Virus record (IMG/VR): IMGVR_UViG_2778261360_000006
Origin: a virus
Taxonomy: Duplodnaviria > Heunggongvirae > Uroviricota > Caudoviricetes
Length of the DNA stretch: 15,710 nt
Reading direction: 5' to 3' (one strand)
Part shown: positions 1 through 4,359 of the stretch, piece by piece
How the letters are laid out: each line of letters opens with the position of its first letter
Numbering within the stretch: the stretch's first letter is position 1
The notes under the pieces: model-generated
Seen by the model: only the letters and a program-made list of their open reading frames with translations
Told to the model about the DNA's origin: nothing
Databases searched by the model: none
Translations under genes and position numbers: made by a program

Positions 1-55
1 TTGTGATTATGGCCTCCGGTTATTTCATCGGTCAGATACGCTGGTGGTGAAATGA
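1..55 (+). CDS. 3' end of an upstream lysis gene (probably the endolysin), partial; stop TGA at 53-55 overlaps the Rz ATG as ATGA
   Basis: Frame 2 is open from the window edge to TGA 53-55, and the ATGA overlap with Rz is typical translational coupling. Position immediately before Rz matches the lambdoid lysis cassette order. Too short to identify the family. Confidence 0.3.
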
Positions 56-516
56 ACCGCGTACTGTGCGTGGTCATTATTGCCCTGCTGGTGGCCTGTG
101 GTGCGCTTAGTCTGGGGCTGAATCATTACCGTGATAACGCCATTACCTACAAAGCCCAGCGCGACAAAAATGTCAGAGAACTGAAGCTGGCGAACGCGGC
201 AATTACTGACATGCAGATGCGTCAGCGTGATGTTGCTGCGCTCGATGCAAAATACACGAAGGAGTTAGCTGATGCGAAAGCTGAAAATGATGCTCTGCGT
301 GATGATGTTGCCGCTGGTCGTCGTCGGTTGTACATCAAAGCAGTCTGTCAGTCAGTGCGTGAAGCCACCACCGCCTCCGGCGTGGATAATGCAGCTTCCC
401 CCCGACTGGCAGACACCGCTGAACGGGATTATTTCACCCTCAGAGCGCGACTGATAATAATGCAAAAACAACTTGAAGGGGCACAGCTATACATTCGAGA
501 GCAATGCCTCAGATAA
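52..516 (+). CDS. Rz: Rz i-spanin (inner-membrane spanin subunit)
   Basis: 154-aa ORF. Translation from [17 protein letters not shown] onward is nearly identical to lambda Rz as I recall it; N-terminal hydrophobic transmembrane segment present; Rz1 is embedded in the +1 frame. Confidence 0.95.
272..454 (+). CDS. Rz1: Rz1 o-spanin, outer-membrane lipoprotein, embedded within Rz in another frame
   Basis: 60-aa [27 protein letters not shown]... with lipoprotein signal and lipobox (LVVVG-C), proline-rich PPPPP core; near-identical to remembered lambda Rz1 and located wholly inside Rz. Confidence 0.9.
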
Positions 517-786
517 AAACCGGCCAAGGATAATCCGCTGAAGATTCGCCGGTGGCTAAAGTGTGCCAAGAGTTCAATTTACGCAATTACTCCTGTCGAT
601 GCTATGCACCGTCTTTGTGAAGTCAATGGATACCTGATTTATTTCTGTGCGCTGTATCGTCGCTGTACTCTTGCATTAATTATGACTGTAGCCTGACTGG
701 GAACTCCTTCTGCACAAGTGTGGGGGAATAATCAAAAACGGTGCACACCGGGGTTACCGGGTACACATATTTCATCATGCCAGCGA

Positions 787-815
787 GTCCGGTTCTGGCA
801 CGGAAGAAACCGGAC
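787..815. terminator. Hairpin (8-bp stem GTCCGGTT / AACCGGAC, 13-nt loop) immediately 3' of the minus-strand 136-aa gene; possible weak or bidirectional terminator
   Basis: Perfect inverted repeat at 787-794 and 808-815 read directly from the sequence; flanking U-tract is weak on both strands, so terminator function is uncertain. Confidence 0.25.
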
Positions 816-823
816 GTTATGAT

Positions 824-1234
824 TTAGTGCGGAAATATTTGTGTAGTGTTCTGAATGTTCTCAGTAAAGAGTAATGAATTATCAAAGGTATAGTAATACC
901 TTTTGTTTTCGTGGATATTTGTAATCCATCTGAAAACCCCTGCTGTAGCAAGATTTTTCCTGTATTCGTAAAATGATAACTCTCCTGATTTGAATCCTTT
1001 TAAGGTGGCTTCTATAAGGCATTTATTTTTTGAAAATCTTACATTTACAACCTTACCCTGTCCTTTTATTAAAACCGTATTATCGTTTTCAAGAACAAGA
1101 TGAATATTCTCTGTGGCTAAATAGTAAATGTAATGTGAGACATTGTGACGTTTTAGTTCAGAATAAAACCAGTGATAGTTTAAATTATTTCGCACTTTAT
1201 CGAATATTTGTTTAAAAATGGCAACCTGAGCCAT
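824..1234 (-). CDS. Hypothetical protein, 136 aa from the SD-supported start at 1234 (ORF track extends to 1249); AT-rich moron gene, possibly DUF1398 / YbcV-YdfO-like prophage protein
   Basis: Long ORF in an otherwise non-coding, visibly AT-rich stretch. GGAAGG Shine-Dalgarno 7 nt upstream of the ATG at 1234. Family assignment is only by recollection of size and position of ybcV in E. coli DLP12 (between lysis genes and the Nu1 homolog); not verified. Confidence 0.65.
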
Positions 1235-1291
1235 TGTAGTACCTTCCATGTGATATGAGGGGGCGTAGTCTGCACGATTATCTAAATTGCT

Positions 1292-1525
1292 TCAATCTGG
1301 TCTGACCTGTTTTCTGAGCAATTCAGTAATGTCACTCTTTTCTTTGTTTGCTTCAGGCGAAACTCTTTTTTCTGAGCACAGTCTCCGGCGGCAGGCTTCA
1401 ATGACCCAGGCTGAGAAATTCCCGGAACCTTTTTGAACAAGAGCGATGTTAATTTGTTCAATCATTTGGTTAGGAAAGCGGATGTTGCGGGTTGTTGTTC
1501 TGCGGGTTCTGTTCTTCGTTGACAT
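1292..1525 (-). CDS. Small ribbon-helix-helix (CopG/Arc/MetJ-like) DNA-binding protein, 77 aa; upstream gene of the minus-strand cassette
   Basis: Translation has a basic N-terminal tail (TRRTTTR), putative beta-strand NIRFP, helix NQMIEQINIALVQKG, G-S-G-N turn, helix FSAWVIEACRRRL: the canonical RHH layout. Same strand as and 57 nt upstream of the 136-aa gene. Shine-Dalgarno is weak. Confidence 0.55.
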   Translation of the reverse strand: MSTKNRTRRTTTRNIRFPNQMIEQINIALVQKGSGNFSAWVIEACRRRLCSEKRVSPEANKEKSDITELLRKQVRPD

Positions 1526-1724: not shown

Positions 1725-1736
1725 GGGCGGCGACCT
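1725..1736 (+). other. cosN: 12-nt cohesive-end sequence GGGCGGCGACCT (terminase nicking site)
   Basis: Exact match to the lambda 12-nt cohesive end, flanked by lambda-like right-end sequence on the 5' side and followed by CGCG...TTTTC.CTATTTATGA like the lambda left end; located about 215 bp upstream of the Nu1 start. Confidence 0.85.
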
Positions 1737-2459: not shown

Positions 2460-4359
2460 TATGGTGGCCGCCGTTTCGGTTGCGCTGCAGCCTCTGGTCA
2501 GGGTTGTACCGATGACGGCAGTTGAATGGGCTGACCAGTATTATTATCTGCCGAAAGAATCCTCATACGGTGACGGCGAATGGAAAACGCTGCCGTTCCA
2601 GATCGCCATCATGAACAGTATGGGGAATGATCAGATCCGCACTGTTAATCTGATTAAATCTGCCCGTGTTGGCTATACAAAGATGTTGCTGGGAGTCGCC
2701 GGGTATTTTATTGAGCATAAATCCCGAAACAGTCTGCTTTTTCAGCCCACGGATTCTGCCGCTGAAGATTTTATGAAGTCTCACGTGGAGGCGACGATTC
2801 GGGACGTGCCATGCCTGAAAGATCTTTCCCCGTGGCTGGGTCGTAAACATCGTGGTAATACCCTCACGCTGAAACGCTTTTCATCGGGGGGGGGCTTCTG
2901 GTGCCTGGGTGGTGCGGCAGCAAAAAACTACCGTGAAAAATCCGTGGACGTGGTCTGCTATGACGAACTTTCCTCGTTCGAGCCGGATGTCGAAAAAGAG
3001 GGCTCGCCAACCCTGCTGGGGGATAAGCGTATTGAGGGCTCGGTATGGCCAAAATCCATTCGCGGCTCGACGCCTAAAATAAAAGGCTCCTGCCAGATCG
3101 AAAAAGCGGCCAACGAGTCGGCGCATTTCATGCGTTTTTATGTGCCCTGCCCGCACTGTGGGGAGGCGCAGTATCTGAAATTTGGCGATGAGTCCACGCC
3201 TTTTGGCCTTAAATGGGAGAAGGACAGCCCCGAAAGCGTTTTCTACCTCTGTGAACATCATGGCTGCGTGATCCATCAGTCTGAGCTTGACCAGAGCAAC
3301 GGGCGGTGGATCTGTGAAAACACGGGCATGTGGACCCGTGACGGTCTGACGTTTTTCAGCGCTGCGGGTAATGAAATTCCGCCGCCGCGCTCCATCACTT
3401 TCCATATCTGGACGGCGTACAGTCCGTTCACCACCTGGGTACAGATTGTCTATGACTGGCTGGATGCACTGAAAGATCCCAACGGCCTGAAAACCTTTGT
3501 GAACACCACGCTGGGCGAGACCTGGGAAGAGGCCGTGGGCGAAAAAATCGATCACCAGGTACTGATGGATAAGGTTGTGCGTTACACGGCGGCGGTGCCT
3601 GCCCGGGTGGTTTATCTGACGGCGGGCATTGACTCGCAGCGAAACCGTTTTGAGATGTATGTCTGGGGATGGGCTCCGGGAGAGGAAGCCTTTCTGGTGG
3701 ATAAAATCATCATTATGGGGCGTCCCGATGAGGAAGAGACGCTGTTACGTGTGGATGCGGCGATCAACAAAAAATACCGCCATGCAGACGGAACCGAAAT
3801 GACCATTTCCCGTGTCTGCTGGGACACCGGGGGGATCGATGGCGAAATTGTCTATCAGAGGTCAAAAAAACACGGTGTTTTCCGGGTGCTGCCGGTAAAA
3901 GGTGCATCTGTTTATGGCAAGCCGGTGATCACCATGCCAAAAACCCGCAATCAGCGGGGCGTGTATCTGTGCGAAGTGGGGACGGACACCGCAAAAGAAA
4001 TTCTCTATGCCCGTATGAAAGCCGATCCCACGCCTGTGGATGAAGCCACGTCGTATGCCATCCGTTTTCCTGATGATCCGGAGATTTTTTCGCAGACAGA
4101 GGCGCAGCAACTGGTCGCGGAAGAGCTTGTGGAGAAGTGGGAAAAAGGAAAGATGCGTCTGCTGTGGGATAACAAAAAGCGGCGTAACGAAGCGCTGGAC
4201 TGCCTGGTGTATGCCTACGCGGCATTACGTGTGTCCGTGCAACGCTGGCAGCTTGATCTGGCTGTACTGGCAAAATCCCGGGAAGAAGAGACGACCCGGC
4301 CAACCCTTAAAGAACTGGCAGCGAAGCTGTCCGGAGGAGTGAATGGTTACAGTCGCTGA
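2431..4359 (+). CDS. A: Terminase large subunit (gpA-like), 642 aa; start at ATG 2431 (MNISEQQ…), overlapping the Nu1 3' end by 29 nt
   Basis: Strong colinear similarity to lambda gpA throughout (TAVEWAD..YYLPKES, FWCLGG..AKNYREKSVDV, GDKRIEGSVWPKSIRGSTPK, WTAYSPFTTWVQIV, FVNTTLGETWE, KKRRNEALDC). Lambda gpA also begins MNIS…; the ORF-track start 2374 is an in-frame upstream extension. Confidence 0.95.
   Translation: MNISEQQLNNMVAAVSVALQPLVRVVPMTAVEWADQYYYLPKESSYGDGEWKTLPFQIAIMNSMGNDQIRTVNLIKSARVGYTKMLLGVAGYFIEHKSRNSLLFQPTDSAAEDFMKSHVEATIRDVPCLKDLSPWLGRKHRGNTLTLKRFSSGGGFWCLGGAAAKNYREKSVDVVCYDELSSFEPDVEKEGSPTLLGDKRIEGSVWPKSIRGSTPKIKGSCQIEKAANESAHFMRFYVPCPHCGEAQYLKFGDESTPFGLKWEKDSPESVFYLCEHHGCVIHQSELDQSNGRWICENTGMWTRDGLTFFSAAGNEIPPPRSITFHIWTAYSPFTTWVQIVYDWLDALKDPNGLKTFVNTTLGETWEEAVGEKIDHQVLMDKVVRYTAAVPARVVYLTAGIDSQRNRFEMYVWGWAPGEEAFLVDKIIIMGRPDEEETLLRVDAAINKKYRHADGTEMTISRVCWDTGGIDGEIVYQRSKKHGVFRVLPVKGASVYGKPVITMPKTRNQRGVYLCEVGTDTAKEILYARMKADPTPVDEATSYAIRFPDDPEIFSQTEAQQLVAEELVEKWEKGKMRLLWDNKKRRNEALDCLVYAYAALRVSVQRWQLDLAVLAKSREEETTRPTLKELAAKLSGGVNGYSR

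What the first reader, a model, noticed from the sequence alone, without database searches (positions are those of the whole stretch)
52..130. Mosaic junction inside the 5' end of Rz
The first ~25 codons of Rz ([23 protein letters not shown]) differ from the lambda Rz N-terminus I recall (MSRVTAIISALVICIIVCLSW…), while from NHYRDNAIT onward the sequence is almost identical to lambda at the nucleotide level, continuing through Rz1. This suggests a recombination breakpoint within the Rz transmembrane segment joining a non-lambda lysis cassette (holin/endolysin upstream) to lambda-like Rz/Rz1. The transmembrane domain of the i-spanin is sequence-tolerant, which would permit such a junction.
Basis: partly seen in the sequence, partly recalled or inferred. 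Interest (0 to 1): 0.35.

Follow-up and report, generated by a model that had tools for sequence, protein, structure and literature searches.

The report
Three-part recombinant Rz spanin gene
The phage lysis gene Rz in this window is a patchwork of three phage lineages with a lambda-type middle section, an ordinary product of recombination among lambda-like prophages that is already common in E. coli genomes.

Summary
Window 121-445 matches lambda Rz/Rz1 (5 mismatches in 325 nt). Window 1-120 cannot be aligned with lambda, but 1-111 is 110/111 identical to Stx phage H-19B and to TL-2011c.

The crossover lies in a 23-nt tract, 121-143 (AATCATTACCGTGATAACGCCAT, codons N24-I31), which is identical in lambda, H-19B and PhiR5_1. 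That puts it just after the transmembrane anchor, not inside it.

Lambda identity stops at 445, nine bases before the Rz1 stop. After a mixed zone (446-474), 475-560 is 84/86 identical to phage PhiR5_1. So the lambda-type DNA is an internal patch of about 300-325 bp, covering most of the periplasmic part of Rz and nearly all of Rz1.

The whole haplotype recurs at 99.5% in E. coli 042 and about 180-210 other complete E. coli genomes, and in at least 12 IMG/VR contigs, so it is not an artefact.

Both anchor types occur with several core types, and related alleles carry shorter lambda tracts that start at the same 5' point. Rz is therefore a recurrently recombining gene.

This is textbook lambdoid mosaicism, and experiments have shown such exchange for the R-Rz-cos region. 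Interest is low.

The parts
1..50 (+). 3' end of a small unannotated ORF that precedes Rz; its TGA stop ends 1 nt before the Rz ATG. Part of the H-19B-type segment.
   Evidence: Identical in H-19B and in E. coli 042, where the whole ORF reads [45 protein letters not shown]. No Pfam hit.
52..516 (+). Rz, the inner-membrane spanin subunit (154 aa). Intact ORF.
   Evidence: Pfam PF03245 Phage_lysis, E = 5.5e-52, residues 29-152. The most hydrophobic 19-residue stretch is 4-22, and C99 and C152 are kept.
272..454 (+). Rz1, the outer-membrane lipoprotein spanin subunit (60 aa), embedded in the +1 frame of Rz.
   Evidence: Pfam PF06085 Rz1, E = 4.5e-19. Lipobox VVGC with Cys20, C29, the PPPPP run and R59 are all present. 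It differs from lambda Rz1 at L2R, P42L and G60D.
1..120 (+). Segment A: H-19B / TL-2011c (Stx-phage) type. Encodes the Rz N-terminus and transmembrane anchor (codons 1-23).
   Evidence: 110/111 identical to H-19B and TL-2011c over 1-111, the one mismatch being T78. The 61/111 to lambda is not a meaningful alignment.
121..143 (+). Crossover tract AATCATTACCGTGATAACGCCAT (codons N24-I31). Identical in lambda, H-19B, PhiR5_1 and the window.
   Evidence: Alignment A1; informative sites. It is a low-diversity island in samples anchored on either TMD type: pi 0.027-0.028, against 0.2-0.4 downstream.
144..445 (+). Segment B: lambda-type tract. Covers Rz coiled-coil 1, the linker and the start of coiled-coil 2, and nearly all of Rz1.
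   Evidence: 298/302 to lambda, 242/302 to H-19B, 245/302 to PhiR5_1. At informative sites, 60 lambda-type versus 2 H-19B-type.
446..474 (+). 3' transition zone of mixed affinity. Contains the Rz1 stop at 452-454.
   Evidence: 22/29 to lambda and 19/29 to PhiR5_1. No closer donor was found in the sampled loci.
475..560 (+). Segment C: PhiR5_1-type 3' end of Rz (codons ~142-154) and the first ~45 nt downstream.
   Evidence: 84/86 to PhiR5_1 and 56/86 to lambda. At informative sites, 22 PhiR5_1-type versus 0 lambda-type over 475-520.
40..47 (+). Chi octamer GCTGGTGG. Context only; a role is not shown.
87..94 (+). Chi octamer GCTGGTGG inside the TMD codons, 27 nt left of the crossover tract. Context only; a role is not shown.
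1725..1736 (+). Exact lambda cosN cohesive-end sequence GGGCGGCGACCT. It places Rz 1.2-1.7 kb left of the virion right end.

Best explanation
Rz/Rz1 here is an intact two-component spanin gene pair whose DNA is a three-part recombinant. The start of Rz, with its membrane anchor and the DNA just upstream, is of the H-19B/Stx-phage type, which in relatives sits in a phage-21-like holin plus lysozyme cassette. An internal tract of about 300-325 bp is lambda-type: it encodes the periplasmic coiled-coil 1, the linker and the start of coiled-coil 2 of Rz, and nearly all of the embedded Rz1. The last ~23 codons of Rz and the DNA downstream are of a third type, closest to PhiR5_1. The patch arose by homologous recombination (double crossover or gene conversion) between lambdoid phages or prophages sharing a host. 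The left exchange fell in a 23-nt tract identical in all parental types, which is also where homology between lambda-type and H-19B-type cassettes ends on the left. The right exchange fell next to the 23-nt shared stretch 423-445. Shown here: the discordant similarity, its sharpness, the existence of all parental types, and the spread of the haplotype. Inferred: the recombination pathway, the direction of transfer, and that the chimera still works. Function is plausible because both ORFs are intact, the anchor is experimentally replaceable, the embedded Rz1 travels together with the Rz codons it overlaps, and the Rz E150 / Rz1 R59 contact pair and Rz C99/C152 are retained.
For: There are two abrupt switches of nearest relative, with Fisher p = 9e-34 at the 5' side and 1.4e-14 at the 3' side. 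Segment identities are 110/111 to H-19B for 1-111, 298/302 to lambda for 144-445, and 84/86 to PhiR5_1 for 475-560. Unrecombined parental-type genes exist: lambda, H-19B and PhiR5_1. The same haplotype is present at 99.5% over window 1-1300 in E. coli 042, O55:H7 DEC5D and others; 211 complete genomes cover at least 80% of that query. It is identical over 446-560, and 99.0-99.3% identical over the lambda-type tract, in 12 IMG/VR contigs and the E. coli 042 locus. Anchor type and core type re-assort: H-type TMD occurs with lambda, H-19B and third-type cores (14, 48 and 3 haplotypes), and lambda-type TMD occurs with lambda and third-type cores (20 and 28). Among H-type-TMD alleles, nested lambda tracts all begin at site 144 but end near 243, 251, 291 or 422. 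They share the markers T173 and G276, which points to further exchanges inside Rz. TL-2011c shows the reverse arrangement, with an H-type core and a lambda-type 3' end plus bor. Experimental precedent: lambda recombines with the DLP12 prophage across R-Rz-cos-nu1-A at high frequency, breaks at cos stimulate exchange on the Rz side, and recombinants carrying the replaced R and Rz are viable (PMC3945230). cosN lies at 1725-1736, 1.2 kb right of Rz. Pfam places both proteins in the Rz and Rz1 families. An artificial TMD is functional in lambda Rz, and the E150-R59 salt bridge is documented (PMC5295617); both residues are present here.
Against: No phage with an exact match to 446-474 was found, so the 3' boundary may involve a fourth, unsampled parent or later mutations. 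The direction of transfer cannot be decided: a lambda patch may have entered an H-type gene, or H-type ends may have been put onto a lambda-type gene. Function of the chimera has not been tested. This copy carries two private non-synonymous changes, Rz H94Y and Rz1 P42L, that are absent from all other sampled copies. The IMG/VR samples were drawn with exact-match anchors and capped at 120 rows, so haplotype counts are not frequencies.
Confidence: 0.9

Rival explanations
1. A single junction: one crossover inside the Rz transmembrane segment joined a foreign holin/endolysin cassette to an otherwise lambda Rz/Rz1 and lambda right arm.
For: The 5' switch is real, and the upstream DNA is non-lambda.
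Against: Lambda identity ends at 445. Region 475-560 is 84/86 to PhiR5_1 and 56/86 to lambda. bor, which follows Rz in lambda, is absent. The exchange tract is codons 24-31, after the TMD.
Confidence: 0.04
2. No recombination: the anchor region simply diverged faster than the rest of Rz because it is under weak sequence constraint.
For: The TMD tolerates complete replacement (PMC5295617).
Against: The anchor segment is not merely diverged. It is 110/111 identical to a different lineage (H-19B) whose core is only 80% identical to the window, while the window's core is 99% lambda. Rate variation cannot produce reciprocal near-identity to two different relatives.
Confidence: 0.01
3. An assembly chimera formed between two co-resident prophages with similar Rz genes.
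For: E. coli genomes carry a median of 2-3 and up to 13 Rz-like places each, which invites mis-assembly.
Against: The identical mosaic occurs in about 180-210 independently finished genomes from different serotypes and hosts, and in at least 12 IMG/VR contigs.
Confidence: 0.01
4. The junction is a maintained recombination hotspot rather than an accident. The 23-nt tract would be a conserved linker at which anchor modules and periplasmic modules are exchanged, with exchange promoted by the two adjacent Chi sites and by the nearby cos break.
For: The tract is a low-diversity island even at third codon positions: pi3 is 0.05-0.08, against 0.2-0.5 downstream. In the lambda-TMD sample it is also lower than the 6 nt lying between the anchor and the tract (0.39). 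All TMD-by-core combinations exist. The only two Chi octamers in 15.7 kb lie 27 and 74 nt to its left, in the orientation active for RecBCD entering from the right cos end (orientation rule from PMC12315714).
Against: Two Chi sites in the window is not unusual (39 of 200 shuffles had at least 2). One of them is simply the Leu-Leu-Val codons of a TMD. Chi-stimulated exchange is expected at and to the left of Chi, where H-type and lambda-type DNA share no homology. The common 5' boundary of the nested tracts is equally explained by one ancestral event, or by the tract being the left edge of homology. The low diversity may reflect the conserved NHYRDNAI motif together with anchor-linked sampling.
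Confidence: 0.12

Closest known systems
Phage lambda Rz/Rz1 embedded two-component spanin (NP_040646 / YP_001551744)
   Same: Same architecture, with Rz1 in the +1 frame inside Rz. Near-identical length (154 versus 153 aa). Residues 24-131 of Rz match at 106/108 and Rz1 matches at 57/60. C99, C152, E150 and Rz1 C20, C29, P32-36 and R59 are conserved.
   Different: The anchor matches at only 5/23 residues and cannot be aligned at DNA level. The last 22 residues match at 16/22, and the protein carries one extra C-terminal residue. bor does not follow the gene. In relatives the upstream cassette is of phage-21 type rather than lambda S/R.
Rz of Stx phages H-19B and TL-2011c, in a phage-21-like lysis cassette
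   Same: Identical first 31 codons and identical 51 nt upstream. The same small upstream ORF is present, and in E. coli 042 the same holin and lysozyme types.
   Different: The core is only 80% identical at DNA level, and Rz1 is clearly different (for example TAACGSTPPVQVPC versus [13 protein letters not shown]). TL-2011c is itself a different mosaic, with a lambda-type 3' end plus bor.
Rz of phage PhiR5_1 (PV340545) and the PhiR12 group
   Same: The 3' end and the first ~45 nt downstream are 84/86 identical. The C-terminus ...[12 protein letters not shown] is the same.
   Different: The core is H-19B-like (81% to the window). The anchor is a diverged H-type, 88/111.
Experimentally produced lambda x DLP12 recombinants across R-Rz-cos-nu1 (De Paepe et al. 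2014, PMC3945230)
   Same: Same genes, same position relative to cos, and the same mechanism class: homologous recombination between a lambdoid phage and a resident prophage, yielding viable phage with a replaced Rz.
   Different: Those exchanges used about 98% identical DNA over 3.3 kb. Here the partners are about 80% identical and one exchange lies in a 23-nt identity tract. This natural event was not observed directly.

Membership tests
Lambda-type i-spanin Rz (Pfam PF03245 Phage_lysis) | Sequence match to the family profile above the curated cut-off | tested here: met
   175.7 bits against a cut-off of 25.4, E = 5.5e-52, residues 29-152 covering profile positions 1-125 of 126.
Lambda-type i-spanin Rz (Pfam PF03245 Phage_lysis) | Single N-terminal transmembrane anchor followed by a periplasmic domain (type II topology) | tested here: met
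   The most hydrophobic 19-residue stretch is 4-22 ([19 protein letters not shown]), mean Kyte-Doolittle 2.82, at the same position as in lambda. Topology itself was not tested.
Lambda-type i-spanin Rz (Pfam PF03245 Phage_lysis) | Periplasmic cysteines C99 and C152, and E150 for the Rz-Rz1 contact | tested here: met
   Cysteines at 99 and 152, and E150 present. Their roles are taken from PMC5295617.
o-spanin Rz1 (Pfam PF06085) | Profile match, plus a lipoprotein signal with lipobox Cys, plus a proline-rich region | tested here: met
   68.4 bits against a cut-off of 27.9. The sequence reads LVVVGC with Cys20, has C29 and PPPPP at 32-36, and has R59. The P42L change is private to this copy.
Embedded two-component spanin architecture | The o-spanin ORF lies wholly inside the i-spanin ORF in the +1 frame | tested here: met
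   Rz is at 52-516 and Rz1 at 272-454, with frame offset +1.
Spanin function (outer-membrane disruption at lysis) | Required for lysis in the presence of divalent cations; forms an Rz-Rz1 complex | not testable with these tools
   Inferred from intact ORFs and conserved key residues only.
Recombinant (mosaic) allele produced by homologous recombination | Adjacent segments have different nearest relatives, with an abrupt and statistically supported switch | tested here: met
   Informative-site runs give Fisher p = 9e-34 at the 5' side and 1.4e-14 at the 3' side.
Recombinant (mosaic) allele produced by homologous recombination | Parental types exist independently, and the exchange point lies in sequence shared by the parents | tested here: met
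   Lambda, H-19B and PhiR5_1 carry the unrecombined types. The 23-nt tract 121-143 and the stretch 423-445 are identical among them.
Recombinant (mosaic) allele produced by homologous recombination | Not an assembly artefact | tested here: met
   The same haplotype occurs in about 180-210 complete E. coli genomes and at least 12 IMG/VR contigs.
Chi/RecBCD-stimulated recombination hotspot | Chi in active orientation relative to a DNA end, with an excess of exchanges next to it | tested here: inconclusive
   Two Chi sites are in the active orientation 1.6 kb from cosN. However, the count is not significant, the expected exchange side lacks homology, and no unbiased breakpoint distribution was obtained.

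The most novel reading that the evidence does not exclude
The 23-nt tract encoding NHYRDNAI, just after the Rz membrane anchor, would be a conserved intragenic linker that acts as a recurrent exchange point. It would let lambdoid phages shuffle spanin periplasmic/Rz1 modules between otherwise non-homologous lysis cassettes, with exchange favoured by the adjacent Chi pair and the nearby cos break.
Probability: 0.1. Interest if true: 0.4.

Novelty: new member of a known kind. Interest (0 to 1): 0.15.

Why it matters
It matters little beyond annotation. It is a clean natural example of intragenic mosaicism in a lambdoid lysis gene. It shows that the anchor, the core plus Rz1, and the C-terminal tip of the spanin can be inherited separately. 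That fits the published domain dissection of Rz, and it matches laboratory demonstrations that phages pick up Rz-region DNA from resident prophages. In practice, Rz is a poor marker for typing lambdoid or Stx prophages, and 'lambda-like Rz' says nothing about the neighbouring holin or endolysin. The low-diversity tract at the anchor boundary could be used to test the old 'linker sequence' idea for module exchange, but the present evidence does not require it.

Tried and rejected
(1) Sorting IMG/VR alleles by their best reference among lambda, H-19B and PhiR5_1 was too crude for cores only 60-70% identical. I replaced it with thresholded typing and informative-site strings.

(2) One search had an off-by-one error in the anchor offset; one search corrects it. 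My early note placed the single 5' mismatch at 82, which is an alignment column. The true window position is 78.

(3) I looked for a donor of 446-474 among 236 loci. None is closer than 22/29.

(4) A known RNA element might have explained the nucleotide-level conservation of the tract. There is no Rfam match at E <= 1 in 1-1900.

(5) Chi as the cause of the junction: the count is not significant, and the geometry does not fit a lambda x H-type cross. It is kept only as a low-probability rival.

(6) The small ORF upstream of Rz has no Pfam family. I did not pursue it.

(7) Two full-text literature searches found general mosaicism papers and the Rz domain analysis, but no description of this particular junction.

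(8) I did not use the large protein-database searches or structure prediction. The question is about DNA ancestry, and both proteins are unambiguous family members.

Full report
**What is in the window**

The window opens 51 nt before Rz. Rz occupies 52-516 (+) and encodes 154 aa. Rz1 occupies 272-454 in the +1 frame and encodes 60 aa. Pfam places the two proteins in PF03245 (E = 5.5e-52) and PF06085 (E = 4.5e-19).

Downstream lie:
- a DUF1398 gene at 824-1249 (-);
- a DUF3950/YnfO gene at 1292-1525 (-);
- an exact lambda cosN at 1725-1736;
- Nu1-like and large terminase genes, followed by lambda-like head and tail ORFs.

The window is therefore the right end and left arm of a lambdoid prophage.

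**Checking the observation**

I fetched lambda (NC_001416) and aligned it with the window. Window 121-445 equals lambda 46035-46359 with 5 mismatches in 325 nt. Left of 121 there is no meaningful alignment, and right of 445 identity falls to roughly 60-75%. At protein level, residues 1-23 match at 5/23, 24-131 at 106/108 and 132-153 at 16/22.

**Where the other parts come from**

Window 1-125 is 99.2% identical to Stx phage H-19B, TL-2011c and many Stx1/Stx2 phages. Window 121-445 is 98.8-99.1% identical to lambda and its close relatives. The 3' end has no close match in the phage collection except PhiR5_1 and the PhiR12 group.

A five-way alignment and segment counts give the following identities:

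| Window segment | lambda | H-19B | PhiR5_1 |
|---|---|---|---|
| 1-111 | 61/111 (not meaningful) | 110/111 | 88/111 |
| 144-445 | 298/302 | 242/302 | 245/302 |
| 446-474 | 22/29 | 21/29 | 19/29 |
| 475-560 | 56/86 | 55/86 | 84/86 |

At sites where lambda and H-19B differ, the window is 68 H-19B-type to 1 lambda-type up to 113, and 2 H-19B-type to 60 lambda-type over 144-445 (p = 9e-34). At sites where lambda and PhiR5_1 differ, it is 57 lambda-type to 2 PhiR5_1-type over 144-445, and 0 lambda-type to 22 PhiR5_1-type over 475-520 (p = 1.4e-14 for 144-445 versus 446-520).

Rz is thus a three-part mosaic. The lambda-type DNA is an internal patch, not the whole remainder of the gene.

**The 5' junction**

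The last H-19B-specific site is 111. In-frame identity with lambda begins at 121, and the first lambda-specific site is 144. The exchange therefore lies within AATCATTACCGTGATAACGCCAT (121-143, codons N24-I31), which is identical in lambda, H-19B and PhiR5_1.

In the published domain map of lambda Rz, the N-terminal TMD is residues 1-24 and coiled-coil 1 is residues 27-87 (PMC5295617). The joint therefore sits at the anchor/periplasm boundary, not inside the anchor.

**The 3' boundary**

The 3' boundary follows a second shared stretch (423-445) and falls at the Rz1 stop, inside coiled-coil 2.

As a result, almost all of Rz1 is co-inherited with the Rz codons it overlaps, while the Rz C-terminal tip comes from another lineage. 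The residues known to link the two proteins (Rz E150 and Rz1 R59) and the Rz cysteines C99 and C152 are conserved.

**Context to the left**

The window itself cannot show the endolysin. The closest complete relative is an E. coli 042 prophage, 99.5% identical over window 1-1300. Upstream of Rz it has a class II holin, a YdfR pseudogene, a 177-aa lysozyme and a 298-bp spacer. This region aligns with H-19B, whose record describes S, R and Rz as phage-21-like.

**Is it real and how common is it?**

- 211 complete E. coli genomes hold at least 80% of window 1-1300, and 180 records match at 99% or better.
- 12 IMG/VR contigs and the E. coli 042 locus are identical to the window over 446-560 and 99.0-99.3% identical over the lambda-type tract 144-445.
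- The copies with full coverage of 1-560 differ from the window at only 3-4 positions. The constant three are T78, T331 and T396, which are private to this window.
- Rz-like DNA is present in 4,714 of 5,426 genomes, with up to 13 copies per genome. Partners for recombination are therefore abundant.

An assembly artefact is excluded.

**Is the junction recurrent?**

I sampled IMG/VR with three exact anchors: the 23-nt tract, the H-type TMD and the lambda-type TMD.

- Both anchor types are found with lambda-type, H-19B-type and a third core type. This needs more than one exchange between anchor and core.
- Among alleles with the H-type anchor, there is a series of lambda-type tracts that all start at site 144. 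They end near 243, 251, 291 or 422, and all carry the markers T173 and G276. One pair starts at 155 instead.
- TL-2011c has the opposite arrangement, with an H-type core and a lambda-type 3' end followed by bor.
- In samples anchored only on a TMD, diversity is 0.027-0.028 in the tract. It is 0.10-0.14 in the next 23 nt and 0.2-0.47 further on. Third-position diversity follows the same pattern.

The simplest reading has three parts. First, homology between lambda-type and H-type cassettes ends on the left at this tract. Second, one ancestral exchange there was followed by further exchanges inside Rz. Third, the tract encodes a conserved motif. A maintained hotspot is possible but not required.

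**Mechanism**

De Paepe et al. showed that lambda recombines with the DLP12 prophage across R-Rz-cos-nu1-A. Breaks at cos stimulate exchange on the Rz side, and recombinants with replaced R and Rz are viable (PMC3945230). Here cosN lies 1.2 kb to the right of Rz.

The only two Chi octamers in the window lie at 40-47 and 87-94, in the orientation active for RecBCD entering from the right end. I do not lean on this. The count is not significant, and Chi-stimulated exchange would be expected to the left of Chi, where the two parental types share no homology.

**Comparison with what is known, and verdict**

The proteins are plain members of the lambda Rz and Rz1 families. The phenomenon is classical lambdoid mosaicism by homologous recombination.

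I found no paper describing this specific junction. However, the allele is already in hundreds of public genomes and nothing about it is unexpected.

It is wrong on position (after, not inside, the anchor) and wrong on the number of boundaries (two, not one).
- Interest is low.

Noticed in passing
window 40-47 and 87-94 (+); cosN at 1725-1736: The only two Chi octamers (GCTGGTGG) in the 15.7-kb window lie within 55 nt of each other, in the H-19B-type segment just left of the Rz crossover tract. Both are in the orientation active for RecBCD entering from the right cos end, about 1.6 kb away. The count alone is not significant (39 of 200 shuffles had at least 2).
   Followed up: partly
window 1-50 (+); full ORF in L003 about 3916-4050 and in H-19B (L002): There is an unannotated small ORF of about 45 codons from GTG, or 32 from ATG ([32 protein letters not shown]). 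It has one hydrophobic stretch and ends 1 nt before the Rz start. It is nearly identical (one mismatch) between E. coli 042 and H-19B and has no Pfam hit. It may be an extra small membrane protein of the phage-21-type lysis cassette.
   Followed up: partly
window 78, 331, 396: Three substitutions are private to this window compared with every other sampled copy of the mosaic allele. T78 is synonymous. T331 gives Rz H94Y and is silent in Rz1 Cys20. T396 is silent in Rz and gives Rz1 P42L in the proline-rich region. Whether this copy is still functional is unknown.
   Followed up: partly
L236 (TL-2011c, NC_019442) 2552-3341: The TL-2011c Rz is a different mosaic of the same parental types. It has the H-type anchor and core up to about window-equivalent position 404, then a lambda-type 3' end followed by bor.
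   Followed up: partly
window 517-823: bor, which follows Rz in lambda and TL-2011c, is absent. About 300 nt without a convincing gene precede a DUF1398 (ybcV-like) gene on the minus strand. Window 648-830 resembles lambda 46867-47045 at 79% and phages ev099 and Kati at 91%.
   Followed up: no
window 1-51, compared across IMG/VR loci carrying either TMD type: Diversity rises sharply again just upstream of the Rz start codon: pi is 0.26-0.47 in 1-51 against 0.08-0.10 in the anchor codons. The Rz start may therefore be another mosaic boundary, though exact-anchor sampling inflates this contrast.
   Followed up: no
H-19B record AF034975 (L002 1552-2124): The H-19B Rz is annotated as 190 aa because its reading frame runs on past the usual ...EQC(L)R end. 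This looks like a different 3' end or the loss of the usual stop in that record.
   Followed up: no
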